From: Ostreococcus lucimarinus
Lineage: Eukaryota
NCBI GenBank assembly: GCA_000092065.1
Contig: CP000592.1
Length of the DNA stretch: 64,000 nucleotides
Strand: one strand, 5' to 3'
In this document: positions 6,501 through 57,681 of the stretch, one piece after another
Position numbering within the stretch: position 1 is the first letter of the stretch
Layout: every line of letters starts with the position of its first letter
Made by a program: the position numbers and the translations under genes
The notes under the pieces: generated by a model
What the model was told of the DNA's origin: nothing
The model's database searches: none
What the model saw: the letters and a program-made list of their open reading frames with translations, nothing else

Positions 6501-8871
6501 GAGTCTTTGTCGTATCTCTTGCTCGTTCTTTTGTAGATGTGGACTTGTCCATGACGTCTGAGAGTCGTTCGTACTCTTCGGATAGTTTCTTCAACGCGTG
6601 TACGGCGCCCTCCTTTCGGAGTAATTTGGCCATGTCTACCATCTTTTTTCCCATCCCAGATTCCACGAGGTCCAAGCAGCCTTGAATTCGCTGCGCATCC
6701 TTGCACGAGAGCTGAGCGGAGCAAAAGGCCGCGAAAGAAGTCGTCTCTAAGACATTCTTGAAAGAATCGTCCGTCGAAAGCTGCGTCCACTTCGTGAGAG
6801 CGGATAAACACTTCACCTTGACTGCCTGAGGCACGCTAGAGTCAACCGCTTGCATCAAGACGTTCGTCAGGTGCTTCGCGTACTTGACCAATAACTCTGG
6901 TTCTTGCTTGGTCAACACTGGAACATTCTTCTCGCACAGTGACGCATCCTTCTCGCGCTTATTCCCAGAACGCGGTGACGATCGCATCCGTGGACCAACA
7001 GCCGGTAACAAAGCATCGGCGAGCGTGGCAACCTCGAGCAACTGCTCCGAAGTCACGATTGGCGAAGCCAAACCGCTGCTCGCGGGAGACGCTGACGATG
7101 GACCAGTGTTCATCGTCGTGAGAACCTTGCATCCAGATAGTGCGACAGATAAAGTTTCTGGTAAACCTTGTCGAAGAAGTTCGATGGCGACATCGGGATT
7201 GTGCACTGTGCAAACGTTCAGTAGCTTGATGAGCGAGTGATGCGTCGCCGGATTGACTGAACGCACCGAGTGCGGGGCGATGAGATTCACGACGTTCGCC
7301 ACGACACCGCTCTCACACAAACGAACGATTCGAGTTTCAGAATCTTTCGCCATTTTCGCAGCCAAATTCGTCAAGCATGTGCACGCGCAGTCTACCAGAC
7401 GAGGATCGTCGTGAGATAAAAGGTTTGCTAAGATTGGCACGGCGTCCATAGCACCGTCCAAGGCTGAGCTCGGAAGCTGTCGACAAATGTTCGCCGCAGT
7501 CTGCAAGCTTACACGTTGCATGCCGATGGAGAAAAAGTCCAAATACGACAAGCAAGCGATCAGAGCGCCTTGTCGCGCGCATTCTGCGCCGTAATCTTGA
7601 CTCAGCTTTTCCAACGCCTGCAGTGACTGCTCGGCGAGATCGATGTACTCAATTGTGAGCAAACGCGAGCAAAACTGGGGCAACGCGCCGTGATGAACGA
7701 TGGCTCCTCGTGAGGGAGGCATCACGTCCGCCATCGTCGTCAGTGCGCGTGCGGCGAGGAGCATAATGTCTGGCATATACTCCATCGTCATCAACTCGAT
7801 CAAAGCCGGAACAAAGGAATCGAGGGGCATGCTCATCATCAACTCCTCCCCCGAAATCACCAAGACCTCGTTGAGCTCGCTCAAAGCCGCCATTTGCGCC
7901 GAGGGATCGTCCATTTGTTTCAAACCGCGTAAGATCTCTTTCAATTTGCTCGAACTTTGACGAAACAATCCTCCACCCGCCCCGCTGGCGGCCGCCGCGT
8001 TGCCCAGACGCCGCAAGAGCGCTCGCAAGCCAGCCTCTGGGTCGTCTCGGTCCATGGCGTCTCGTAACTCGTCCATATCATCATCCATCTCGTGATCCAT
8101 ATCCTCGTCGTCCTCGTCGTCTTCTTCGTCGTCTTCATCATCGCTCTCGTCCTCGCCATCCCCAGATTCATCTTCAGAGTCGTTCTCGGAGTCGTCGCCG
8201 TCGTCGTAGTCGTCGTCGTCCTCGTAAAACCCGTCCCAGGCCCCGTCGCCGCCCTCGCCCTCTCCCGCGTCCTGTCCACCTCGACCCTCGCGATTCGCGC
8301 GTCCATCGCGTCCACAATTATTTTCAGACGTCTTCTTCGCTCCTCGACCATCGTGTCCATCGCTAACGCGCGTCGGCTTCCCCCCTCGTTCGCCCCTTTC
8401 GCCGCCACCGCGCTCTCTCGCCTTCCCGCTCGTCGACGTCGTCTCCACCCCCCGACCGATCGACTCGACGTTCTGCTCGATCTTATCCTTCTTTTTTGTC
8501 TCACTTTTCGTTTTCACCCTCTTCGTCTTCGCTCGCGCGCCGCGCTCGTTCGCCGTCGCGTTCGCTCGTTCGCCGTCGCCGCGTTCGCCGTCGCCGCGCC
8601 GAGAGATCTTCTTCTTTTGCCCATCGCGACTTTTCTTCCGCGTCCGCGTCTTCGCCAGCACCGCGCGCTCATTTTCTGCGGTCTTGACGTCTTTCGCGCG
8701 CTTGCGTTTCCCCACCACGGCTTGCACGTCCGCGTTCGCGTCGAGCGCGCGCGTTTTCGTCGCGCTCGGCGATGCGTCGGCACGCCGCGCGCGCGACGTT
8801 TTCGACGATTTACGCGTCGCCGGGGACGCCGCGAGCGGCAACAGCGCGTCCAGAGGGACGTGTGAAGACAT
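3592..8871 (-). CDS. HECT-type E3 ubiquitin ligase with N-terminal armadillo repeats (UPL3/KAKTUS/TRIP12-like)
   Basis: The C-terminal HECT domain is clear (FVTGAPRLPPGGLASLQP, TCASYLKLPPYSCKEIMLERLTYAMSEGQGSFDLS). ARM-like repeats and long D/E tracts lie further N-terminal. The first ATG is at 8869-8871; the ORF-track start at 8874 is a GTG. Confidence 0.9.
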   Translation of the reverse strand: MSSHVPLDALLPLAASPATRKSSKTSRARRADASPSATKTRALDANADVQAVVGKRKRAKDVKTAENERAVLAKTRTRKKSRDGQKKKISRRGDGERGDGERANATANERGARAKTKRVKTKSETKKKDKIEQNVESIGRGVETTSTSGKARERGGGERGERGGKPTRVSDGHDGRGAKKTSENNCGRDGRANREGRGGQDAGEGEGGDGAWDGFYEDDDDYDDGDDSENDSEDESGDGEDESDDEDDEEDDEDDEDMDHEMDDDMDELRDAMDRDDPEAGLRALLRRLGNAAAASGAGGGLFRQSSSKLKEILRGLKQMDDPSAQMAALSELNEVLVISGEELMMSMPLDSFVPALIELMTMEYMPDIMLLAARALTTMADVMPPSRGAIVHHGALPQFCSRLLTIEYIDLAEQSLQALEKLSQDYGAECARQGALIACLSYLDFFSIGMQRVSLQTAANICRQLPSSALDGAMDAVPILANLLSHDDPRLVDCACTCLTNLAAKMAKDSETRIVRLCESGVVANVVNLIAPHSVRSVNPATHHSLIKLLNVCTVHNPDVAIELLRQGLPETLSVALSGCKVLTTMNTGPSSASPASSGLASPIVTSEQLLEVATLADALLPAVGPRMRSSPRSGNKREKDASLCEKNVPVLTKQEPELLVKYAKHLTNVLMQAVDSSVPQAVKVKCLSALTKWTQLSTDDSFKNVLETTSFAAFCSAQLSCKDAQRIQGCLDLVESGMGKKMVDMAKLLRKEGAVHALKKLSEEYERLSDVMDKSTSTKERARDTTKTPVGLVPALGGGSRGIAARAAAMTTDGPEYREALARARQVYEKFFVNAEQLADAEDPSVDRLRRASATLRMTGDATSVVEFLESVSNASTFELLESDAVTALREYLVPRDWKDTRALVRRYATFIKAAGRTKNTGAFASLIRHLSDALASCEDLSIAVTTIQPSFARRGRDSSGDDSNLAGLVRPFKVRFKRANQGAENFTDYSNNVVLVEPFATLSAIEDFLYPRVYKLRGAPAPPRRSSRLSPPPEMEHDDDEDDEDDDEDEEMSEDDEDAVLGDDGEADGRELDLTNEDIQQEDPQLEDDAQEPNRSDSFAARAAAANETNRLVFSVNGEELNSATTLLQAISTIARKEGMTMTETNWEKTNTIVYRAAKSSDIVPMPLQLGGVVDDSKDDATKMNETIAELGNSEYRAALGSLVPALCDRLKVAVANEDASPQFNDLLVVLSVLHEMSTSASRILLLDGDEPLVTARNVSLPEESFIHGKLTGKLARQLQDTLTLCGSATPTWCTALARVCPWLFPFELRHKLFKCVSFSLSRTLHHLHGNGSDSGAVTTDGGREIRIGRLQRQKVRVNRGQIFESAKKVFDIPNTLKMVLEVEFFEEVGTGTGPTLEFFTLLSKQFKRRKLNLWRDSGVANEDDLVVAPHGLFPAPITPPRLGGKTHASRLKNFKLLGQSIGKVLQDGRMLDLPLAPAFYRMLLGRSLGLHDLIEIDPGLGNTLRRLDAAANEIETMKREGRPESEWRNVTVDGVNIEDLCLTFVIPGASMELIKGGSEVGVNEVNLREYVDTIVDACVGSGVAAYFESVRTGLEQVVPLARLQMFNESELEAVICGQGEQWTPEMLTECITFDHGYNALSPPIKNFCDILSAFTPNQQRSFMRFVTGAPRLPPGGLASLQPRLTVVCKQPSSTVGLSSIDSAPVAAGTPLADGDLPSAMTCASYLKLPPYSCKEIMLERLTYAMSEGQGSFDLS

Positions 8872-14585: not shown

Positions 14586-15414
14586 ATGTCCGCGATCTTC
14601 ACCACCTCCATGTCCGCCAAGGCCTCGGCCAAGGTGCGCGCGACGCGACGCGCGAGCGACGCGACGCGCGATCGGTCCGCGGACGCGCGCGAGTATCTCG
14701 CGGGTGTTCGAGGACGCGCGGGCGCGTCTCGCGCGCGCGGACGCGCGGACGCGCGATCGCGGACGCGCGAACGATGGGAAAGAATCGTTCGCGGCGGGCG
14801 GGCGCGCGATGCGGGAGGTCGCGCGGTCGCGGGACGAGCGGCGCGCGATCGCGCGCGCGCCGAGGGAACGGGCGGTGGATCGGGGTTGGGACGCGAGACG
14901 CGAGGGACTGACGAACGCGCGATCGCGCGCGCGCGCAGGTGCAATTCCGCGCTCGCCCGACGAAGGCGTTCGCGGCGCGCCCGGTGCAGTGCTCCGCGGT
15001 GAAGTTCTCCGTGAACGCGGCGGCGGTGCGTGCGAGCGAAGCGAAGGCAAACCTAGGCGTTTGAACGCTTCGGATAACGCGCGCGAGAGACGCGAGACGG
15101 GCGCGACGCGGCGATCGCGGACGCGTGATTCGGCGCGCAATGACTGACTGAGGTGGCGTTTGGTTTGTCCTTCGCGCGCGCAGAGCCAAGACACGCTCGA
15201 CAAGGTTCGCGGCATCATCTCCGAACAACTCGGCACGGAGCTCGACGCCGTCGCGGCGGACGCCAAGTTCGTCGACTTGGGCGCGGATTCTCTCGACACC
15301 GTCGAAATCATGATGGCGCTCGAAGAGCAATTCGAAATCACGCTCGATGAGGAAGGTGCCGAGAAGATCGCCACCGTTCAAGAAGCGGCGGACATGATCC
15401 AAGCGCAAATCTAA
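14586..15414 (+). CDS. ACP: Acyl carrier protein precursor; proposed three exons 14586..14633, 14939..15025 and 15184..15414 (122 aa)
   Basis: The last exon encodes a canonical ACP ([22 protein letters not shown]). The two upstream exons are all phase 0, use donors GTGCGC (14634) and GTGCGT (15026), CTGAC branch points and CAG acceptors. They give a transit peptide [16 protein letters not shown]|[29 protein letters not shown]|SQDTLDKV. Confidence 0.75.
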
Positions 15415-20623: not shown

Positions 20624-20871
20624 CGCGCGCACCATCCACGCGGGCGTGCTCGAACCGCTGTCGGCGTACGAGACCGGGTCGCGCGCGCGCGTTTCGCGCG
20701 GCATGACGACGATCGATGGGCGCGTCGCGGTGTGGCGAGCGATCGACCCGCGCGGCGCGGAGGCGAGCGCGGAGGCGAGACGCGCGCGAGGGATCGACGA
20801 CGACGCGCGATGACGACGATCGAATCGTTAACGATGATGGTGATCGCGATGAATTACGAGACCACGGCGCG

Positions 20872-25383: not shown

Positions 25384-25880
25384 CGCGCCGCGACGTGCCG
25401 CGTCGGCGAAAACTCAAATTCCAAAATTCCATAAACGCTCGAAAAACGCTCGCCGCGATCGCGCACCGACGGGTGCCCGGAACCGACCGCAGACGACGAC
25501 GCGCGACGACGACGACGCGATCGACGACGCGACGACGCGGCGCGGCGCGACGCGCGAACGACCCGACCGACGCGCGCGTCGAACGACGCGACGAGGGACG
25601 ACGCGCGCGCGATGACGGCGACGTCGGCGCTCGCGGTGCGTCGGTGCGGTGTTTCTCGGAACGCGCGACGGCGTCGAGGGCGACGCGCGAGAGCGACGCG
25701 CGAGAGCGACGCGCGCGCGCGCGATCGGACGACGCGATCGGGACGCGCGGCACGGCCGCGATGCGCGCGCGAGGCGCGAAGAGAAGACTGACGACGCGCG
25801 CGTCGGGGATCGATTCGTTTGTATAGGGCGCGGTCGAGACGCGCGCGCGCGGTCGAGGCGACGATTCGTTGTTGAAGGTT

Positions 25881-28641
25881 ATGCGCGCGGCGAGCGAAAA
25901 GGCGAAGCGAGAGTTCATGAGCAGTGATCGAGGCGTGGTGTCCGTGTGCTCGTGTTTGTTGAAGGTGCGTTCGGGGAAGGAAACTCGGATTGCGTCGGGT
26001 TGCGTCGGGCCGCGTCGACGCGTCGACGATTGAGATCGGCGATTGAACGAGACTGACTGACTCGCTCGTTTTCGATGCTCAGGAGCTCGAGGGCACGAGC
26101 GTGGATTGGTCCGTGGACGTCATCGGCGCGATGACGAATTTAATGGTGCAGTTCTCAGACTTAGATTGCGTGGACGTCGATCGCGTGCGAGATAAGTTGA
26201 TCGATGCGTTTGAACGCTTGGTCGATTACGCGCAGACGGCGGCGGAGAGCAATTTCTCTTCCATGTCCAAGGATATGCGCGATGTTTATGTGGATATCGT
26301 GTGGATTATTACTGAGTTGGTGAATGGTGCGGATGCGAAAGAAAAAGCGGATTGGGAGCGATTCGTCAACACCGCTACTAACGCGATTCTCATCGAAAAT
26401 TTGCCCCCTCTGATGCGACGGGAAACGCTTCTCTGTTTGAAATCGGTCACGCAAGGATGTGTGGACACGTCGACCGCACTTAAAGATGCGATTTATCCGA
26501 ACGCTAACGTCAAAAGAAGTAGACGCGGTGACTCGAACTCCAAGCTCGGTTTACTTAGGCAAGTGTTTTTGAAGTGCGGCGATTTCAACGCCCAAAAGCA
26601 CATCGCCGAGATTTTGTTCCGTCTCGTCAAGGCGAACCTTCTCGAACAAGACGTCGCGTCTACCATCTTCAAGCACGTGACGTCACAGTTTAAGGATTTA
26701 TTCAGGATTCAAGATACCGCGCAGATGTTCAAATCGCTCAAGACTTTGGTTCGACACTTCAACGCCGCGCAAGGCAGCGCTGCCTCGGTCAAGTCTTTTG
26801 AAGCCAAAAATTTACGTCTAGTTGACTTGCAAGTGCACGATAAATGGGTCAATTTCGGTCAAGAAATGCTCACCGTGCACGTGGTCATGGAAGACGATGG
26901 TAGTATTGAGCCGGTGGATATCTTGTACTCGAACATTCGCGCGTTTTCTATGCCCAAGAAAAACGTCGCGCACATCGGCATTCGCGAGAAACCTCTTGGC
27001 TTGGCGGCGGAAGATCCTTTTGATATCGAAGACGACGAGTGGATTCAAATCGAATTCCATGATCAAAATGTTCCGGCTGTGATTGAACAGCTGTTTCGAA
27101 TCGGTAAGCAAAACGACATCGTCGAAATGTACATCACGAATGCAAACTTGGTGCCGAGCAAAAAAATGTCCGCGGGCATCTTAGACGTCGAATTGAACTC
27201 TGAGTCTGAATCTTTGGAACATGATGCGCCCGCGGTGAAACCGACGCCCGTCGTGCTCAAATCGAAGTCGAAGCCGAAGCCGAAGAAAGCGCCTCGGAAG
27301 ACTCGTGAGAAAACTGCCGCTCTAGTGGTCTCCGAAACAGAATCCGATTCTGAGGAAGTGCCGAAAGCCGTCAAGCCGACGCAAGCGTCTCGACAGCTTC
27401 CGAAGCGTAAAGCGAAGCAAGATGGTATCAAAAAGTTAAACCAGCAGCTCAATGATATTTTAGAGACTTCCGATCTCGCCGAAGAGCCTGAACCGTCGCT
27501 GTCTCCTCCACCGGCAAAGCGCACCTCGCCTCCGCAACGACTTCAACCTGTTCGTCAGCTTGAGTATTCTCCGCGACGCGAAATGGAGGACGATGAGGAC
27601 AACGACAACGACGACGACGACGCGCAAGAAGATGAATGGACTCATGAAGATATTCCTGCTCTCGTGAAGATGATCAAGGCGAAAGGTACGACGAAGAAGC
27701 AGCGCGAGGAATACCAGCGCGTCGTCGATCGATTGAAGCAAAGCGAATCTCGCGATGTTTCTTTGGGGAAGTCATTGTTTAAAACGCCCGCGCCGTCGCT
27801 TCAAGCGCCGAAGACCGGACCACGACCTGGCATACTCAAGTCCCCCGACGCTAAGCGTTTGAAAACCGGTCCTTATGATAGCGTCGTGGATTGGCGCAAG
27901 CGTCTCGCCCCAGTTCAAACGACAAAGAAGCCCGCTCGAACGACTACGACGGCGACTACGACTACGACGGACTTGAACTTTGACGACGATGAAGACGATG
28001 AAGACACTGGTGGTGGTACTTTAACCCCTCTGTCAAACTTTCTCAACGCATCTGACGATGTCTCGCCGTTACTGAGCGACGAAAAAGCGAAGAAGAAGTC
28101 TAAAACTCGCCGCTCGGCGCCCGCGGACGTCGCCGCCATGGGCGACGACATGGTTGGATTCCAGCAAATGATGCAATCTCTCGCCGAACGCAATCGACGA
28201 ATCGCGCGCGAGCGCATCGAGTCACTCGTGAACGAGTTCAGAGTCGAGTCCGAGGCCGCGAGTCGTAAGTTCATCTCTCAAGCCGAACAAGATTACGAAA
28301 CGTTCGCGCGCGCCGCCGGGCGCCAAGCCGCCGAGCGTTCGCGAGAGTCCAAAACCATCGCCTCTCGCGTCGAAGCCCTCACTCGCGAGTACAAATCCGC
28401 GCTCCGCGTCGCCTACGAAGATTTTACCGCCAACAAGCGCGCCATCGTCGCCGACACCGCCCGCATCACCGACGATCTCGCGCAAATCGACGCCAAGCAC
28501 GCCGCCGCCGCCAAGCGGCTCCTCGAAAAGCTCGACGCCAAGCGCCGCAAGGTCGCCACCGACGTCGACACCGCCGCTCGCGCCGCCCACACCAACGACG
28601 GCGTTAAATCCATGCTCTTAGAGCTCGCTCGCAAGATGTGA
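25881..28641 (+). CDS. Hypothetical protein with an N-terminal helical domain, a PH-like beta domain, a long K/E/S/T-rich disordered middle and a C-terminal coiled coil; a candidate SYCP2/Red1/ASY3-like axial-element protein; proposed exons 25881..25964 and 26083..28641
   Basis: The long ORF begins at a GTG (26101). Upstream there is an ATG exon (25881) with donor GTGCGT at 25965, CTGACTGAC at 26053-26061 and acceptor CAG at 26080-26082, all phase 0. The domain order and the coiled coil at the very C-terminus fit SYCP2/ASY3. Homology could not be confirmed by eye. Confidence 0.65.
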
Positions 28642-32899: not shown

Positions 32900-33351
32900 C
32901 GCAAGCCTCGCGCGCGTTCGCCCCGTGCCCGCGCGTTCGATCGTCGCGCGCGAATCCCGTCGGAATTCCCTCCCGTCGCGCCGCCTCGCCGCGCGATCGC
33001 GACGCCGGTCGCGCGGATTCGCGTCGCGATCGCGTCGTCGTCGCGCGCTCTCGCGTCGTCGCGTCGCGTCGTCGCGTCGCGTCGTCGGCCGTCGAGGAAT
33101 CGCGACGACGACGGACGCGACGACGCGAATCGTCGACGCCGCGCGCGATCGCCGTCATAAATGGGTCTTTCGTGTGCCGAAATACGTACATCGATCCCTT
33201 GTCGAATCGTGACTCGAGAGAAGTCCCCCGGGCCGTCTCATGGTCCGTGTGCGTCTGACCGCACGCGAGTGAGACCGCGCGCGATCGCGAACGCGCGATC
33301 GCCGCGATCGACGCGCGCGACGTCTCGACGCGCCTCGATCGCGGCGTCGAC

Positions 33352-33818
33352 ATGGCGAAGGTCCCCGCGCGACTGCGAAGCGTGACGTACAGCCTGTCGC
33401 CCATGCGCACGGGCGTCATGCACGGCCTGTTCAAGGATTGGGCGTCGGGCATGGCGACGCGCGTCAAGGAGAACGCGGTCGACGCGGGCGTGTTCTGCGC
33501 GCTGCCGCTCGGCGCGACGGTGTGGTGCGTCGAAGCGAGACGACGACGACGCGAAACGGTGACGCGACGACGACGCGCGACGACGACGCGACAAAACGGG
33601 ACGGGACGGATGAGGGATCGCGGGGCAGAGGCGTAGGGTCGCCGGAGCGCGACGACGGGGGGGGCGAGCGAGAAGACACGACCGCGAACGATCGGTCAGG
33701 GCGCGTCGAGGGGGTGGTGCGCGCGAACGCGTGACTGACGAACGCGCGTTCGATCGCGATCGAACGCAGGTACGCGTTGAATTACAAGGAAAATGAAAAG
33801 TTGGAGCACCGATATTAA
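33352..33818 (+). CDS. QCR8: Cytochrome bc1 complex subunit 8 (QCR8/UQCRQ, ubiquinone-binding protein QP-C), 73 aa; exons 33352..33524 and 33770..33818
   Basis: Exon 1 MAKVPARLRSVTYSLSPMRTGVMHGLFKDWASGMATRVKENAV..PLGATV matches plant QCR8 (MGKQPVRLKAVVYALSPFQQKVMPGLWKDL..VSENW). Donor GTGCGT at 33525, CTGAC at 33735, acceptor CAG at 33767-33769. Exon 2 encodes WYALNYKENEKLEHRY*, matching the plant C-terminus ..YVQHFLEKEKLEHRY. It is absent from the ORF track as a single ORF. Confidence 0.8.
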
Positions 33819-34040
33819 ATTCGAGCGGCGCGCGCGAGCGAAGGGGTCGAGCGAACGACCGACGTCGCTCGCGCGGTAGAGCGCGTCTTAATTTAGAATT
33901 GTAACGTTTAGAAGGACGCGCGCGCGCGCGGTGGTCGCGACGTCGCGCGCGTGATCGAACCGCGGCGCGAGGGACCCTCGAGCGCGCGGCGCGCGCGGCG
34001 CGCGCCGAGCCGCACTCGCCGGCGCGCGTCGACGTCCCGG

Positions 34041-36243: not shown

Positions 36244-38001
36244 CTAGTAATCAATGTATTTCGCTTGTTGCGCCTCGACGACCCAATGTTGCATTTCTTT
36301 TTGAAACTCTTCATCGTTCATCGTTTCGAGCTTTGCGTTTGTGGGCATGAGTGGTGAAAAGGCCTCGTTGAAGAGGAGTTTTTTGATAAGCAACAAGCCC
36401 GTCTGCGGTCGAAACTGCGGCACCATGTGACCAGAGCCGTGCACGGTCGCAAAGGACAGGTTGTTTTCGTAGTCAATGACGTGACCGGCAAACTGCGGCC
36501 CAGCGTCTCTCGTGGCGAGGTTCGGACCATATAGTAACGGCTTTTCTTCGAGAAGAAATGCGGGTACGCCCGAGGCGTTCACGAAGTAGGCTCGCTGAGA
36601 GCCACCCTCGAGCTCTTTGAATCCGAGCTTGATTATGGCTGCGCGCGTACCTTCATACGATACGCACGGGTCGGTATCGCCGTTGAAAACGATCGTTCGT
36701 TCGAGTCTCGGCGCGAGCGTGCGGTAGAAATCAATCATGCTCGGCGTGTGTTTGTCCGCGCCCTCGTTACACGCCGCCCATACGCTGCTATACGACCAAT
36801 TTTCAGTTGGACCGGGCCAAGCTTTGGCGGGAGATTTCTCAACGTTGAGCGCTTTGCGGACATCATCACGCATCATCCATTGTGTCATCATATAATCAAG
36901 CGTGCCTGGAACGAACTCTCCGCCCTCTGCCATGGCTGCCGGCCCGAACAACGTGAGATCGTTCAGCCACGCGTAACGCCAGTCCTGAGAAAAGCCGTTG
37001 CTCGTTTGCCATAGAAACTTACGATGCGCGACGAGACACTCGGGCGAGCCTTTTCCCTTAGAGACCTCATCCGCGAAAATCTCTAGCAAAGACGTCGACT
37101 TGCGCTTCGCGGCGCCGCTCCATTCGCCGCGCATCAACGGCGACGCGTATCGATGTTCGCACTGATGCCAGAGCAAGTCGAACTCCTTGTCCGGGACGAA
37201 CCCATACTTGTGCCCGTACCACAACATAGACATTGAATTCCTCTGTGAATCGTTATCCGTGCACGGATCCCCCGTAGCGATGCCCGCGAGCGGAATCTTT
37301 GCGTCGTCGCTCGTCTGCGCGTCGTTGAAATCCAACAGTTCCCGCGCCAATGTCGGCACGTACACCCCCGCATACGACTCACCGGTGACGTAAAACTTAT
37401 TTGACCGTAGCTCTGGAAATTTTCGATGGAAGAAATCCACCACCGCCGCCGCCGCGTCTCGCGCCGCGCTCACGTCGTCGTTCGAGCAGTCGCCGCCAAC
37501 CGTCATCTCTTGGCAATAGCTCCATCCCACCCCCGCGGGCGACTCCAACGCCACCAAATTCGCATACTTCGTCCAAGCGAACGGATTTTCCATCAACCCA
37601 CCGCTCGCGTTCACCAACAGCGGGCCTTGTTCTTGCAGAAATCCGAGAATTGAGCTCGATCCCGGGCCTCCGTTCATCCACAACAGCGTGGGCGCGCGCG
37701 TCCAGTCGCCGTCGCGCTTCGCGGCGAACCAGTAGTGCAGCGCCGTCCCCGGCGTCGACGCCGACGCATCGAGAAATCCAGAATACTGCGTCGACGGCGG
37801 CGCGCCGTATCCCGGCAGCGTCGTCACCGCGTCGCCGTCGCGCGCCATCGCTCCTCCGCGCTCTTCGCGCCGTAATTCGACGCTCGCGCGCGTCCCTCGC
37901 GTCGTCGCGCGCGCGTCGCACGCCCCCGGCGCGACGACCGCGCACGCGAAGAGCGCCACCGCCGTCGCGCGCGTCGCGCGCGCGCGTCGCGTCGTCGTCA
38001 T
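36244..38001 (-). CDS. Serine carboxypeptidase (S10 family) with a signal peptide
   Basis: WMNGGPGSSS, GESYAG and ATVHGSGHMVPQ (the catalytic Ser/His context). The N-terminal signal is MTTTRRARATRATAVALFACAVVAPGACDA. ATG at 37999-38001. Confidence 0.9.
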   Translation of the reverse strand: MTTTRRARATRATAVALFACAVVAPGACDARATTRGTRASVELRREERGGAMARDGDAVTTLPGYGAPPSTQYSGFLDASASTPGTALHYWFAAKRDGDWTRAPTLLWMNGGPGSSSILGFLQEQGPLLVNASGGLMENPFAWTKYANLVALESPAGVGWSYCQEMTVGGDCSNDDVSAARDAAAAVVDFFHRKFPELRSNKFYVTGESYAGVYVPTLARELLDFNDAQTSDDAKIPLAGIATGDPCTDNDSQRNSMSMLWYGHKYGFVPDKEFDLLWHQCEHRYASPLMRGEWSGAAKRKSTSLLEIFADEVSKGKGSPECLVAHRKFLWQTSNGFSQDWRYAWLNDLTLFGPAAMAEGGEFVPGTLDYMMTQWMMRDDVRKALNVEKSPAKAWPGPTENWSYSSVWAACNEGADKHTPSMIDFYRTLAPRLERTIVFNGDTDPCVSYEGTRAAIIKLGFKELEGGSQRAYFVNASGVPAFLLEEKPLLYGPNLATRDAGPQFAGHVIDYENNLSFATVHGSGHMVPQFRPQTGLLLIKKLLFNEAFSPLMPTNAKLETMNDEEFQKEMQHWVVEAQQAKYIDY

Positions 38002-38118: not shown

Positions 38119-41100
38119 ATGTCCGCGGACGAGGACGAGGCGCTGCGCCTGGCGCGCGCGCTGCCCGTGAGAGATCGCGTCGCGCACGCGCACTGGAAGG
38201 CTCGAGTCGAATGTTACGACGCGATTGCGCAGCGATGCGCGCGCGCGAGAGCGATGGAGGACGACGCGGACGTCGTCGCGTTCGGTGCGTGCGCGATGCG
38301 ACGTCGATGGGCGCGGGAGCGCGCGCGGAGACGGTGTCGCGGGAGCGATGAAGCGCGGAGGGGGATTTAAACAGCGACTGACAGCTGGAAAACGCGAACG
38401 TCGACGAACGCAGGAGATTGTGCGGTGAAAGCGTGCGCCGATGGGAACGCGGCGGCGCTCGACGCGGGCTTAGATGCCGTGCGAGCGATGCTGACGATCG
38501 CGGACGTGAGCTACGCGGAGAAGGTGGCCGAGGACATGCTGGGGAATTTGACGACGAAGGGTCTGGGCGGACGACCGAAGGCGGCGGAGCGAGCGACGGA
38601 GTGTTGCATGCTGTTGATTGAGTTGGAACAGTGCGATGCGGTGTTGGACGCGTTATTAAAGGCGAGCTTGAATAGGATACCGAAACTCGCGCTCGCGGCG
38701 ACGAACGCGGTGTTGATGGCGGTGACGTCGTTTGGCACGCCAAAGGTGGTGCCGGCGAGCGCGATTTTGAAGGGGCTGACGCCGTTGTTCGACGCCAAGG
38801 ATGCCAAGGTTCGCTCGACGGCGAAAGATATCACGGTGGAGATGACGAAATGGTTAGGAGCGCAAGCGGTGAAGCGCGATTTGATAGATAAGATGCGGGA
38901 GGCTATGCAAGCAGACGTGAACAAAGCCATCTCGAGCGTCGAGGCGAACGCTCGACCGACGCGATTTTTGCGCAAAGATCAAGCGGCGCAAGATTCCGCG
39001 ATGGCTTCCACATCCGGCGACGATGGGAGCGCTGTCGTGGTACAAAAGCCCTCACAGGACACAGAGACGACGACGACGACGGCGCCGGTTGCTGCACCTG
39101 ACGCGTACGATTATTCCGAACCGGAGAGCATTCTTCCGCTTCTCGAGAAACCGGCCGAAGGGGAAAATCCAAAGTTTTGGGACGGCATAGTCAGTAAGAA
39201 GTGGCAGGAACGTCTCTATGCGCTTCAAACGCTCACGAAACTCGCGAGCGCGCCGAAGTTGTCGTCGGGCGATTACGGAGACGTATCCAAAGCTTTGAAG
39301 CAAGTCATCACAAAAGATAGCAACGTGGCGTGCATCGCCGAGGCCGCGAGAGCCGCTGCAGCGCTGGCAAAGGGCGCACGAAAAGAATGGACCCGAGACG
39401 CTCGTATACTTTTACCCGGTATGCTCGATAAGTTGAAAGACAAGACTGCAGCCGTCATCGCGGCCATTCAGGATGCACTGAGTGAGTCTGTCAAGTATTG
39501 TTTTGAGCTCGCAGAGATTGTCGACGAAGTGTGCGCGGCGCTGGCGCACAAAGTTCCCAAAGTTCAGATCGAAACGCTCAAGTGGCTGGAGAGAACGTTC
39601 GAGTATATGACTCGCTCTTCATTGAGTAGTTTGCACAAGGTTATTGTCCCTCCCATTGTGAAATGCACGAGTGCGTCGAACGCGGATGCGAGAAACGGCG
39701 CGCTGCAGACGCTCGCAACTTGCGCGAAAGCGAGTGGTGGTATGAAGTCGATCGAGTTCTTATTGATGGATATCGATGCTGGAAAAAAGTCTAAAATCGA
39801 AGAATTGATGTCGGGTGCGCCGAAAGCTGGTGTATTGGCGCCGAATCCACCGTCTGTGCAACAATCGAGTATGATTGGAAAAGTAGCGCCGCCGGCGAGC
39901 GGCAGCGTCGAGCGCGCGATGAGCGTGAAGCCATCAGATATGACGGGCACAGCGAAGAGACAAACCATCGCTGTCAAAGCTTCCACTGAGGAAGTTATCG
40001 TTGAATTAGCGCCAACAATATCGAAAGATGATGCCGAAGCGCGCATTGTCGCGCTTTTGAGTGAGGAAGTCATACACAACTTGAAGAGCGCGGATTGGAA
40101 AGCTCGACTTGCGGGAATGTCGTCTGTCGTCGAAATAGTGACAACACTGAAAGACACGTCTGGTGACGCGTGTGATGCGCTCGTGATTGGTCTTGCATCG
40201 TTCCCTGGATGGAGCGATAGCAACTTCCAAGTCATGGATAAAATGTTTGAGACTCTAAAAATTTTGAGCGCTCAGCCTTGCTTCGAGTACAGGCACGTTG
40301 CGGCCGCGCTTGACGTTCTCGGCGAAAAACTTAGCTGTTTTAAGCTCGGTACTCGAGCGAGTGACAGTTTGCTGGCGTTTTCAGAGGCTTTAGGACCGCG
40401 GATCATCATGTCACGTCTTCGAGAGAAGACTGGAAATTCCAAGGCTCCAAAAGTCGTTGTCGGCGCTTTGAACTGGGCAAGTTCGACTGTGGAAGAGTTC
40501 GGCGTGGAGTGTTTAGACACGGATATGATGGTAGCCTGGGGTCGAGATGCGCTAGAAACGCCAAATCCCATGATAAAAGGCGGTGGGGCGAAGCTGCTTG
40601 GCGCCTTACACGCGGGCATCGGTCCGAGCGTTAAGGACTCGCTTGCCGGCTTGAAAGACGCACAGTTGCGTAGTTTAGAAGTGGAGTTTGCGCGTAATCC
40701 GTTCGAAGGTGAGATAAAGGCAAAGAGGCAAGTCAGAATGCCGTCATCTGTACCATGTGCGTCGCGTGCCGCTTCGATACCTAGTACTACGAATGCGCCA
40801 CCGCCGAACGCGGCGGTCGTTGAAGCTCCGCGAGCCGACATAAGCGCGAAAATCAACGACAGCTTTCTGAGCAACATGAATGATTCCAACTGGAAGACCC
40901 GCGCGGCGGCTTTGGAAGAACTTGGAAACATTTTGAGAGGCGCAAATAATCGCATTACACCGACCGGAGGCGATTTGTTCAAGGCGCTCAACGCGCGGTT
41001 TGCAGATTCCAATAGAATGCTCGCCGTCACGGCGCTCAACATCGCCGGCGAGCTCGCTCTCGCTATCGGATCGCCCATCGATAAAGTTGGTCGAGGAACT

Positions 41101-50123: not shown

Positions 50124-51659
<1,536 letters not shown>

Positions 51660-55095: not shown

Positions 55096-57681
55096 ATGGC
55101 CGTCGACGAGGACGACGACGAGGACGCGCGCGACGAGGACGGATCGATCGCGAACTCGGACGCGCTCGAGACGCGACGACGGAGGACGCGCGACGACGAC
55201 GACGGGACGACGACGACGAGGACGACGACGACGATGGACGCGCGGATGCGGCGCGCGAGGCGCGAGCACGAGAAAATCGCGCGAACGTACGCGGAGGCGC
55301 ACGAGAACGTGGGGACGAGGGAAAACGGGACGACGCGCGACGCCGACGCGCTGCGAAGGGAACGCGTCAAGACGAGTCATCTGATAGCCAAGGTGAACGA
55401 AACGAAAGTCGGCGCGAACGCGACGCTGGTGAGAAGGAAGGAGTATTTAGACCGGATGATCGCGAACGCGGAGGAACGGGAGGCGTTGATGGAGGACGGC
55501 GGATCGGAGGCGCGAGGCGGAGGCGCGGCGACGACGACGACGCGCCGGGACGCGCCGCAGGAATGGACGACGATGGGGCAGATGGCGGAGAGAAAGTCGC
55601 CGGCGAAGTCGCTGAGGGAGCGCGATGCGAGAGATTTCCAGCCGGAAAAGTATAGATTTGACGACGAAAAGGCGTCGCCGAGCGCGGCGGAGGCTGTCAA
55701 CGGGTTGAGCAGAGCGTTGGACGACATAGACGGAGATTTAGGGTCGATGTCGTCTCTGTCGCCCGATAGATATCCAGGACGAAAAGAAACGGCGAGTTGG
55801 GACACGTTAGCGCGACAACCGACGTCGCACGGCAGTAGACAGTTGGACGCCGCGCTCGGGCGCGCGGGGGCTCCCGAGGCGAAGTCGACGCCGACGACGA
55901 TTTCGACGTACTTTAAGAAGAGCGCGGGTGCGACGCAGCCGACGACGACGACCGCCGCTGTGGACGATTTCGCCGCTGCTGCGACCGACAAGAGTCGCGA
56001 GCGTCTGCCGATGTCGCCGCCGCCGCCCAAGCGTCGAGCGAAGTCGACGCGCGGCGACCCGGCGTCTCCCATGGTGGTGGATCTTCTGGAGACGAGCGAC
56101 GAGGAGAACCCGTTGGAGAACGAGTCAAGAGGGGTGCAAAGCTTGGATCCAGTGAGTCTTACGAGCGAGAATGGTGAAATTCGCCGATCGACGCGCTCGA
56201 GTAGGTATCGCTCGCTGCAGAACACCGTCGGCAACTTGGCGACGGATTACCCAGACTCGAAGACGAAGGGGTCGGTGCAAATCACTCTCGGCGACTTGGA
56301 GCACCTCAGAGACGGCGAGATGCTGAACGATCAGTGCGTGGACTTTTATTTGAAGTACATTCAAGTGGAAATGTTGGGCGCGAACGCGTTTGAGATATTA
56401 GACAAGGTGCACATTTTTAACAGCTTTTTCTATCAAAAGCTCGCGCAAAAGCACGATAGAGATCGAAGCAACGTCGACGCCGCGACGGCATCGCACGCAC
56501 GCGTGAAGAATTGGACCAAGGGTGTGGATATCTTTACGAAAAGCTTTCTCATGATTCCCGTGCACAGCAATTTGCATTGGTCTTTAGTCATCGTTTGCTA
56601 TCCAAACGGTACTGATGAGCGCCAACCGATGATGCTCCATCTCGACAGCATGACGCAACATGGCGGGCACAACTCAGAAGTCGTGTCGAAGACGGTCCGG
56701 CGTTACCTGAGCAAAGAATGGAAAACGCAAAAGGGCGACGACACTGAATCAAAATTCGACGCTCGATACATGCCAACGTATCGCGTCAATGTTCCGAGAC
56801 AAAACAATGGTTGCGACTGCGGCGTTTTCATTTTGGCCTTTCTCGAAAAGTTTTTAACCGAACAACCCGAGATTTTGAAGAAGAGCGATGTTCAACGCGC
56901 GGCGCAAAAGCGCTCGTTTGGAATGGACGATGCGGGCAAGTTTCTACGAAAGAACTGGTTTCCCAACGAGTTCGTGGACGAATTGCGCGCCAAGTTGAGT
57001 CTCCTCGTCATCCAGCGCATTCAGGCTTCGCTCGCGGAAAACGACGCGTCAAAGCTCATTCTCAACGCGGCAAATGAAGAGCAAATGAAAGACTATGAGC
57101 ATCGGCAGTGGCGAACGAAACAAGCGGTTTCAAAGGCTGAGCGTGACCGTAAGAAGAGAATGGAAGCCATGGAAGCGGAGCGAAGACGCAAGCTCGAGCC
57201 GCAAGACCTCTCTGACGACGACGACGCCAAAACCAAAGCCTCCGACGCCAAGGATGTAGACTTTGAGATTTCTCGCGAAGTCAGGGTGAAGAAACAGCCG
57301 ACGAAGACTAGGCAGACGCAGATATTCTCGGGATCCCACTGGAACAAGGCGAGAGAGAAAGAACCCGTGCGCGAGGAGACTCGCGACGAGAAGCCATTCG
57401 AACCCTTCGCGGGCCCGTCGTACAAAATCGGGCGACACACGCGCGCGCGTGCGCCTTCTCCGAGCGCTGATTGGACGAGCGGAACGACCCGTCCCAAGTA
57501 TGGTAACGCCAACCTTTTGAAACGAGCGGAACGATCGCGAGCGAAGCAAAACGGGGAAGAGGAACGGAGCGCCGCCGACGACGAATCCCCGGGCCAGGCC
57601 AAGGCGAAGCTCAACGACGCGAATGAAAAACTTTCCGAGAGAATCAAGGGGATGACGTCTCGAGTGTTCTCGACGAAATAG
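55096..57681 (+). CDS. Ulp1/SENP-type SUMO-specific protease (peptidase C48)
   Basis: The C-terminal C48 domain is clear (MLNDQCVDFYLKY..KSFLMIPVHSNLHWSLVIV..QNNGCDCGVFILAFLEKF), with catalytic His, Asp and Cys. The N-terminus is low-complexity and acidic. The first ATG that does not overlap DGAT2 is at 55096. Confidence 0.8.
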   Translation: MAVDEDDDEDARDEDGSIANSDALETRRRRTRDDDDGTTTTRTTTTMDARMRRARREHEKIARTYAEAHENVGTRENGTTRDADALRRERVKTSHLIAKVNETKVGANATLVRRKEYLDRMIANAEEREALMEDGGSEARGGGAATTTTRRDAPQEWTTMGQMAERKSPAKSLRERDARDFQPEKYRFDDEKASPSAAEAVNGLSRALDDIDGDLGSMSSLSPDRYPGRKETASWDTLARQPTSHGSRQLDAALGRAGAPEAKSTPTTISTYFKKSAGATQPTTTTAAVDDFAAAATDKSRERLPMSPPPPKRRAKSTRGDPASPMVVDLLETSDEENPLENESRGVQSLDPVSLTSENGEIRRSTRSSRYRSLQNTVGNLATDYPDSKTKGSVQITLGDLEHLRDGEMLNDQCVDFYLKYIQVEMLGANAFEILDKVHIFNSFFYQKLAQKHDRDRSNVDAATASHARVKNWTKGVDIFTKSFLMIPVHSNLHWSLVIVCYPNGTDERQPMMLHLDSMTQHGGHNSEVVSKTVRRYLSKEWKTQKGDDTESKFDARYMPTYRVNVPRQNNGCDCGVFILAFLEKFLTEQPEILKKSDVQRAAQKRSFGMDDAGKFLRKNWFPNEFVDELRAKLSLLVIQRIQASLAENDASKLILNAANEEQMKDYEHRQWRTKQAVSKAERDRKKRMEAMEAERRRKLEPQDLSDDDDAKTKASDAKDVDFEISREVRVKKQPTKTRQTQIFSGSHWNKAREKEPVREETRDEKPFEPFAGPSYKIGRHTRARAPSPSADWTSGTTRPKYGNANLLKRAERSRAKQNGEEERSAADDESPGQAKAKLNDANEKLSERIKGMTSRVFSTK

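What the first reader, a model, noticed from the sequence alone, without database searches (positions are those of the whole stretch)
33352..33818. Hidden two-exon QCR8 (bc1 complex subunit 8) gene that the ORF track misses
Exon 1 (57 codons) ends at a GTGCGT donor. A 49-nt second exon lies 245 nt downstream and encodes WYALNYKENEKLEHRY*. The joined 73-aa product aligns along its whole length with plant QCR8 (72 aa), including the diagnostic C-terminal EKEKLEHRY. The second exon is too short for any ORF-based gene finder to report on its own, so this gene would be missed.
Basis: partly seen in the sequence, partly recalled or inferred. Interest (0 to 1): 0.6.

Follow-up and report, generated by a model that had tools for sequence, protein, structure and literature searches.

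The report
Two-exon QCR8 gene, already annotated

Summary
Exon 1 is 33352-33524, a 245-nt GT-AG intron is 33525-33769, and exon 2 is 33770-33818. Spliced, they encode a 73-aa protein that matches Pfam PF10890 (cytochrome b-c1 complex subunit 8, plant type) end to end (E 6.7e-34) and the QCR8 chains of solved plant complex III structures. The same 173 + 49 nt structure, intron phase, GT[AG]CGT donor, CTGAC branch motif and YAG acceptor occur in O. tauri and three other Ostreococcus-like lineages. The exons are under purifying selection and the intron is diverged to background. A public Logan contig lacks exactly these 245 nt and carries the predicted junction. The "hidden/missed" claim fails. 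The exact 73-aa product is already deposited as XP_001420616.1 / UniProt A4S5I8 (Ostreococcus lucimarinus CCE9901), and the O. tauri ortholog is annotated by name. The ORF list also reports exon 1 as a 94-aa ORF that hits PF10890 by itself. Only prokaryote-style gene callers on metagenomes mis-call it, as read-through proteins. Verdict: real, correctly modelled, already known, low interest.

The parts
33352..33524 (+). QCR8 exon 1: ATG, 57 codons and the first two bases (TG) of codon 58. It encodes MAKVPARLRS...LPLGATV(W).
   Evidence: It matches PF10890 positions 1 to about 58. It is 72-93% identical across five lineages, with mostly synonymous codon differences.
33525..33769 (+). Phase-2 spliceosomal intron of 245 nt, GTGCGT...CAG.
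   Evidence: The position and phase are the same in O. tauri (212 nt) and three other lineages (222-263 nt). Identity between lineages is 50-66%, against 53% for shuffled sequence. Exactly these bases are absent from Logan contig L019. It is not a repeated element in the window.
33735..33739 (+). Branch-point-like CTGAC motif, starting 35 nt before the end of the intron.
   Evidence: CTGAC lies 31-42 nt upstream of the acceptor in all five lineages although the surrounding intron has diverged. Its role as a branch point is inferred from the CTRAY consensus.
33770..33818 (+). QCR8 exon 2: 49 nt. Its first G completes Trp58, then YALNYKENEKLEHRY and the TAA stop (33816-33818).
   Evidence: It adds 30 bits to the PF10890 match and aligns with the C-termini of Arabidopsis, Vigna and other QCR8 chains in the PDB. 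It is conserved in every locus examined, with synonymous changes.
33900..33905 (+). Candidate polyadenylation signal TGTAAC in an AT-rich island 82 nt after the stop codon.
   Evidence: TGTAAC occurs 80-130 nt downstream of the stop codon in all five lineages, within otherwise unalignable sequence. Its function is inferred from the TGTAA signal known in green algae (my own knowledge) and was not tested.

Best explanation
This is the nuclear gene for subunit 8 (QCR8/UQCRQ type, plant-type family PF10890) of the mitochondrial cytochrome bc1 complex of Ostreococcus lucimarinus or a nearly identical strain. The pre-mRNA carries one canonical GT-AG intron of 245 nt in phase 2, which splits codon 58 (Trp). 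Splicing joins a 173-nt exon to a 49-nt terminal exon. The product is a 73-aa protein with one hydrophobic helix (about residues 41-62) and the conserved C-terminal KE.EKL.HRY tail. By homology, this helix packs against cytochrome b in the inner membrane as a structural and assembly subunit of complex III. Shown here: the gene structure, its family membership by sequence, its conservation, and the existence of a molecule with the intron precisely removed. Inferred: incorporation into complex III, the branch point and the poly(A) signal.
For: The spliced product matches PF10890 over 1-72/72 at 116.6 bits (cutoff 24.3, E 6.7e-34). It aligns full length with Arabidopsis QCR8-1 (8bel_G, E 7.8e-14), Vigna 7jrg_G and 8zno_G, all 70-72 aa. 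It is 100% identical over 100% of its length to XP_001420616.1 / A4S5I8 of O. lucimarinus CCE9901. The O. tauri ortholog (84% identical) lies in the same order, RNR-small(-)/QCR8(+)/CTR1-like kinase(+), with identical 173 + 49 nt exons. Five lineages share the donor, CTGAC, the acceptor, the phase and a 73-aa product. The exons evolve mostly by synonymous change while the intron is at background identity and the read-through tails are unrelated. Logan contig SRR28369097_54772 joins window 33084-33526 directly to 33769 onward, with a junction sequence identical to the prediction. The only hydropathy peak is at residues 41-62.
Against: No RNA-seq reads could be examined. Two scans of the metagenome contig collection for the junction found nothing. 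The library type of the one intron-less contig could not be established, and that contig is chimeric or rearranged beyond about 37,900. Incorporation into complex III has not been shown for this organism.
Confidence: 0.97

Rival explanations
1. There is no splicing. The 94-aa read-through ORF (33352-33636) is the real product and the downstream 49-nt match is fortuitous.
For: The 94-aa ORF is open and by itself passes the PF10890 threshold at 86.3 bits. Many database entries have this read-through form.
Against: The read-through tails are unrelated in sequence and length between lineages, whereas the downstream mini-exon is conserved in all of them at a variable distance of 212-263 nt, with synonymous changes. 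The spliced form gains 30 bits and completes the profile. An intron-less molecule with the exact junction exists. The read-through entries come from metagenome and sequencing-run assemblies (JGI, ENA, Logan), where each is called as one continuous ORF running into the intron.
Confidence: 0.01
2. The gene model is right, but the intron-less Logan contig L019 comes from genomic DNA of a strain that has lost the intron by reverse-transcriptase-mediated intron loss. In that case it is not transcript evidence.
For: L019 spans three genes on both strands plus intergenic DNA over 5.2 kb and differs from the window by about 0.5%. The library type of the run is unknown.
Against: All eight 98-99.8% identical metagenomic contigs (L003-L010) retain the intron. 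Ostreococcus genes are so closely packed that unstranded transcript assemblies commonly merge neighbouring genes (inference). L019 leaves the genomic order right at the 5' end of the peptidase gene and runs into an unrelated Tim17 gene, as a transcript-assembly chimera would. Either way, precise excision at GT...AG confirms the splice sites.
Confidence: 0.12
3. The locus is a decaying or non-functional copy (a pseudogene) of QCR8.
For: None found.
Against: The reading frame, start, stop and splice signals are intact. Synonymous codon differences outnumber or equal non-synonymous ones in every comparison between the five lineages. The position is syntenic and no second copy appears in the window.
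Confidence: 0.01

Closest known systems
Ostreococcus lucimarinus CCE9901 XP_001420616.1 / ABO98909.1 / UniProt A4S5I8 (Cytochrome b-c1 complex subunit 8)
   Same: It is identical in sequence over all 73 residues, so the annotated gene model uses the same two exons.
   Different: Nothing detectable. NCBI calls it only 'predicted protein', while UniProt gives the functional name.
Ostreococcus tauri 'Cytochrome b-c1 complex subunit 8, plants' (P0002; CAID01000012.2)
   Same: It is 84% identical and 73 aa long, with 173 + 49 nt exons, the same intron phase, the same CTGAC and CGAACGCAG|GTACGCG acceptor context, and the same neighbouring genes.
   Different: Its intron is 212 nt rather than 245 nt and is diverged nearly to background. 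Its donor is GTACGC rather than GTGCGT.
Land-plant QCR8 (Arabidopsis QCR8-1, PDB 8bel chain G; Vigna radiata 7jrg chain G)
   Same: The length is similar (72 against 73 aa) and the alignment is collinear end to end. It includes SLSP/ALSP, GL[FW]KD, EN and the C-terminal KE.EKL.HR[YF].
   Different: Identity is well below that of the Ostreococcus orthologs (54.6 bits against 129-160 bits). Whether the intron position is shared with plants could not be tested, because no plant genomic DNA is available in these tools.
Fungal/animal UcrQ family (PF02939; yeast Qcr8, bovine UQCRQ)
   Same: A weak, collinear match covers the core and the helix (24.4 bits, just under the 25.2 cutoff; S. pombe-type chain 8q1b_H at E 0.0036).
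   Different: The match falls below the Pfam gathering score. The N- and C-terminal extensions differ and the plant-type EKL.HRY tail is absent.

Membership tests
Plant-type cytochrome b-c1 complex subunit 8 (Pfam PF10890, Cyt_b-c1_8) | Full-length match to the family profile above the curated gathering score | tested here: met
   116.6 bits against a cutoff of 24.3. Residues 1-73 cover profile positions 1-72 of 72.
Plant-type cytochrome b-c1 complex subunit 8 (Pfam PF10890, Cyt_b-c1_8) | Small protein of about 70-73 aa, collinear with QCR8 chains seen in solved plant complex III structures | tested here: met
   73 aa. Full-length alignments to 8bel_G (72 aa, E 7.8e-14), 7jrg_G (72 aa) and 8zno_G (70 aa).
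Plant-type cytochrome b-c1 complex subunit 8 (Pfam PF10890, Cyt_b-c1_8) | Conserved C-terminal KE.EKL.HR[YF] tail | tested here: met
   KENEKLEHRY aligns with KEQEKLEHRF, LEKEKLHHRY and QEKEKLSHRY. It is conserved in all Ostreococcus-like lineages.
Plant-type cytochrome b-c1 complex subunit 8 (Pfam PF10890, Cyt_b-c1_8) | Single hydrophobic (transmembrane) helix in the C-terminal half | tested here: met
   The only Kyte-Doolittle peak above 1.0 (15-residue window) spans residues 41-62. This is a hydropathy result only; no structure was modelled.
Plant-type cytochrome b-c1 complex subunit 8 (Pfam PF10890, Cyt_b-c1_8) | Physical presence as a subunit of mitochondrial complex III | not testable with these tools
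   This needs proteomics or a structure of Ostreococcus complex III.
Canonical U2-type GT-AG spliceosomal intron | GT donor, AG acceptor and a branch-point-like CTRAY motif 20-45 nt upstream of the acceptor | tested here: met
   GTGCGT...CTGAC(-35)...CAG. The same grammar is found in all five lineages.
Canonical U2-type GT-AG spliceosomal intron | Position and phase conserved among orthologs, while the intron's sequence and length evolve freely | tested here: met
   Exons of 173 + 49 nt everywhere. Introns are 212-263 nt and 50-66% identical, against 72-93% for exons. The donor is at the same codon in the more distant L015.
Canonical U2-type GT-AG spliceosomal intron | Precise removal observed in RNA | tested here: inconclusive
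   Contig L019 (Logan, SRR28369097) lacks exactly 33525-33769, but its RNA origin could not be verified. Junction scans of the metagenome contigs found nothing.

The most novel reading that the evidence does not exclude
The intron-less Logan contig could be genomic DNA rather than cDNA. The QCR8 intron would then be a presence/absence polymorphism in natural O. lucimarinus-like populations, that is, a recent precise intron loss caught segregating in the most compact free-living eukaryotic genome.
Probability: 0.1. Interest if true: 0.35.

Novelty: already known. Interest (0 to 1): 0.06.

Why it matters
For biology it matters little. QCR8 is an expected housekeeping subunit of complex III, and this exact gene model is already in the reference annotation. 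The practical lesson concerns annotation. Prokaryote-style gene calling on metagenome assemblies that contain picoeukaryote DNA systematically gives wrong C-termini for this gene, and sometimes an antisense ORF instead. Dozens of such read-through artefacts now sit in large protein collections. A reader working from raw sequence alone recovered the correct two-exon model, which speaks for the reading method, not for a new gene.

Tried and rejected
(1) I searched metagenome contigs for the spliced junction as DNA, once exactly and once with a degenerate pattern. Both gave 0 hits, which is uninformative because the collection appears to hold genomic assemblies. (2) look-up of encoding contigs for the exact reference protein P0001 returned 'not on record', so the window could not be placed on the reference chromosome directly. 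The source was inferred from exact protein identity for QCR8 and from 98-99.8% DNA identity to metagenomic contigs. The exact RNR and kinase proteins are also on public record, but without an organism name. (3) I tried to decide whether L019 is RNA-derived. (4) I tested whether the intron is an introner-like repeated element and rejected the idea: only low-complexity GACGACG tracts match elsewhere in the window. (5) I tested whether the 37% GC of exon 2 reflects a conserved unusual codon choice, such as a splicing enhancer or regulatory overlay, and rejected it. The low GC follows from the Lys/Glu/Asn/Tyr-rich composition. GC3 is 0.60 here, like the neighbouring genes (0.64-0.73), and 0.80 in the other four lineages. 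(6) The 200- and 219-aa members of the cluster that holds the spliced K36 variant looked like possible intron-less genomic alleles. They are read-through calls from a further lineage. (7) I did not run structure prediction, because the sequence evidence was already decisive.

Full report
**1. The observation**

Every coordinate in the finding is correct.
- An ATG at 33352 opens a frame of 57 complete codons plus TG, ending at 33524.
- GTGCGT follows at 33525-33530, and the intron ends in CAG at 33769, so it is 245 nt long.
- Exon 2 is 33770-33818 (49 nt). Its first G completes a Trp codon and it continues YALNYKENEKLEHRY followed by TAA.
- The joined CDS is 222 nt and gives MAKVPARLRSVTYSLSPMRTGVMHGLFKDWASGMATRVKENAVDAGVFCALPLGATVWYALNYKENEKLEHRY (73 aa).
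- One detail of the title is wrong. The mechanical ORF list does report the locus, as a 94-aa ORF at 33352-33636 made of exon 1 plus a read-through tail.

**2. Identity of the product**

- The spliced protein matches Pfam PF10890 (cytochrome b-c1 complex subunit 8, plant type) over the entire 72-position profile. The score is 116.6 bits against a curated cutoff of 24.3 (E 6.7e-34).
- The unspliced ORF scores 86.3 bits and stops matching at profile position 68, so the 16 exon-2 residues contribute about 30 bits.
- The UcrQ family of fungi and animals (PF02939) matches just below its threshold.
- Against solved structures, the product aligns end to end with Arabidopsis QCR8-1 (8bel_G, 72 aa, E 7.8e-14), Vigna radiata QCR8 (7jrg_G, 72 aa) and 8zno_G (70 aa). 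The alignments include the C-terminal KE.EKL.HR[YF] tail.
- The only hydropathy peak is at residues 41-62, consistent with the single membrane helix of this subunit.

**3. Is it hidden? No**

- The exact 73-aa sequence is in NCBI and UniProt as XP_001420616.1 / ABO98909.1 / A4S5I8 from Ostreococcus lucimarinus CCE9901. UniProt names it cytochrome b-c1 complex subunit 8.
- The O. tauri ortholog (84% identical, 73 aa) is annotated as 'Cytochrome b-c1 complex subunit 8, plants'.
- The window's neighbours, a ribonucleotide reductase small subunit on the minus strand and a CTR1/EDR1-type kinase on the plus strand, are exact matches to public proteins. They sit in the same order around QCR8 in O. 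tauri.
- The window is 98-99.8% identical to eight marine metagenome contigs over 6-9 kb. It shares the Thr36 variant with the CCE9901 reference protein.

**4. Comparative test of the gene model**

- In O. tauri the annotated gene has exons of 173 and 49 nt, a 212-nt intron in the same phase, a GTACGC donor, CTGAC 31 nt before the acceptor and the same CGAACGCAG|GTACGCG acceptor context.
- Three further lineages recovered from metagenomes (L011, L012/L013, L014/L016/L017) have the same 173 + 49 nt architecture. Their introns are 222-263 nt, CTGAC lies 37-42 nt before a YAG acceptor, and the product is 73 aa.
- Between lineages, exon 1 is 72-93% identical and exon 2 is 69-92% identical. Synonymous codon differences outnumber or equal non-synonymous ones in every pair, and exon 2 considered alone also shows synonymous changes in every pair.
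- The intron aligns at only 50-66%, against 53% for shuffled sequence, and the read-through peptides are unrelated.
- A lower-GC relative (L015) has its donor at the same codon and a CTGAC near the end of the contig. The contig stops before exon 2.
- The intron is not a repeat family. Only low-complexity GACGACG tracts match elsewhere in the window.

**5. Junction evidence**

- Two scans of the metagenome contig collection for the spliced junction found nothing.
- An exact look-up of the Lys36 variant of the spliced protein found it as one uninterrupted 222-nt ORF on a Logan contig, SRR28369097_54772.
- That contig aligns to window 33084-33526 and then directly to 33769 onward. It therefore lacks precisely the predicted 245 nt, and the 50 nt around the junction are identical to the prediction.
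- A k-mer assembler cannot create this join by accident, because the two exon ends share only 2-3 bases. Real molecules with the junction were therefore sequenced (inference).
- Whether those molecules were cDNA or an intron-loss allele could not be settled.
- I judge cDNA much more likely, for two reasons. All eight near-identical genomic contigs keep the intron. The contig also leaves the genomic order right after the 5' end of the peptidase gene, near 37,900, and runs into an unrelated Tim17 gene, as a transcript-assembly chimera would.
- Either origin confirms the splice sites.

**6. Mechanism**

- Shown here: a nuclear two-exon gene under purifying selection whose spliced product belongs to the plant-type QCR8 family.
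- From established knowledge of complex III: subunit 8 is a single-helix subunit that packs against cytochrome b in the inner mitochondrial membrane and is needed for assembly and stability of the complex.
- Inferred only: CTGAC at 33735-33739 acts as the branch point, and TGTAAC at 33900-33905 acts as the poly(A) signal. That motif is conserved 80-130 nt after the stop codon in all lineages.
- The published EST study of O. lucimarinus reports introns in about 16-20% of transcripts or genes and an excess of introns in highly expressed genes (PMC2367439). An intron in a respiratory-chain subunit gene fits that pattern.

**7.

- Gene calls on metagenome assemblies of the same organism give a 94-aa read-through (L003, L007-L009), a 73-aa or 124-aa read-through variant (L006, L010), or no sense-strand QCR8 call with an antisense 105-aa ORF instead (L004, L005).
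- Of the 31 proteins returned by the homology search, every one I retrieved apart from the two reference-genome entries is such a read-through artefact (16 of the 31 were retrieved). So are all the other members of the cluster that holds the spliced Lys36 form.
- This is an annotation-quality point and not a biological discovery.

**8. Verdict**

The gene identity and structure are supported. The claim that the gene is hidden or missed is refuted for the source genome. The feature is an ordinary housekeeping gene that is already known, so interest is low.

Noticed in passing
L003-L010 (gene calls); proteins P0003-P0031, P0063-P0069: Metagenome gene callers turn this gene into read-through proteins of 73-219 aa with spurious Arg/Asp-rich tails. 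In L004 and L005 they call an antisense 105-aa ORF instead. These artefacts far outnumber the two correct entries in the protein collection.
   Followed up: yes
L019 4520-5257; window about 37,900-37,994: The intron-less Logan contig stops being collinear with the window just past the 5' end of the S10 peptidase gene. It continues into a 183-aa Tim17-family ORF that is not in the window, where the genome has a TOG/XMAP215 gene. This is probably an assembly chimera through GC-rich low-complexity sequence, and possibly a rearrangement.
   Followed up: partly
window 38119-38413 (+): The downstream TOG/XMAP215-domain gene seems to have a 166-nt first exon (ATG at 38119) and a 129-nt intron (38285-38413). 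The intron has the same grammar as the QCR8 intron: GTGCGT, CTGAC, ACGCAG. Splicing keeps the frame open into the long ORF.
   Followed up: partly
window 15026-15183, 25636-25826, 25965-26082, 50222-50413 (+); 6836-7266 (-): These are further matches to the pattern GT[AG]CGT ... CTGAC ... YAG with intron-like spacing. They are candidate introns and were not examined against any gene model.
   Followed up: no
window 33900-33905: TGTAAC sits in a short AT-rich island and is conserved 80-130 nt downstream of the QCR8 stop codon in all five lineages, while the flanking 3' sequence is unalignable. It is a candidate green-algal TGTAA-type polyadenylation signal.
   Followed up: partly
window 33458: Codon 36 is ACG (Thr) in the window, in the CCE9901 reference protein and in L005. 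It is AAG (Lys) in seven other near-identical environmental contigs (L003, L004, L006-L010), in the Logan contig and in the other lineages. Thr36 looks like a derived minority allele.
   Followed up: partly
window 33000-33140, 33535-33590; also 1086-1133, 20795-20818, 25492-25554, 55170-55350: CGA/CGT-rich microsatellite-like tracts (GACGACG/CGTCGTCG) recur in intergenic and intronic DNA. They account for the only intron-to-window similarities and probably break or mis-join short-read assemblies.
   Followed up: no
L015 841-1302: A lower-GC relative, probably another Mamiellophyceae lineage, has its QCR8 donor (TG|GTACGC) at the same codon, an intron longer than 288 nt and CTGAC near the end of the contig. 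The gene caller started at an internal Met and read into the intron.
   Followed up: partly
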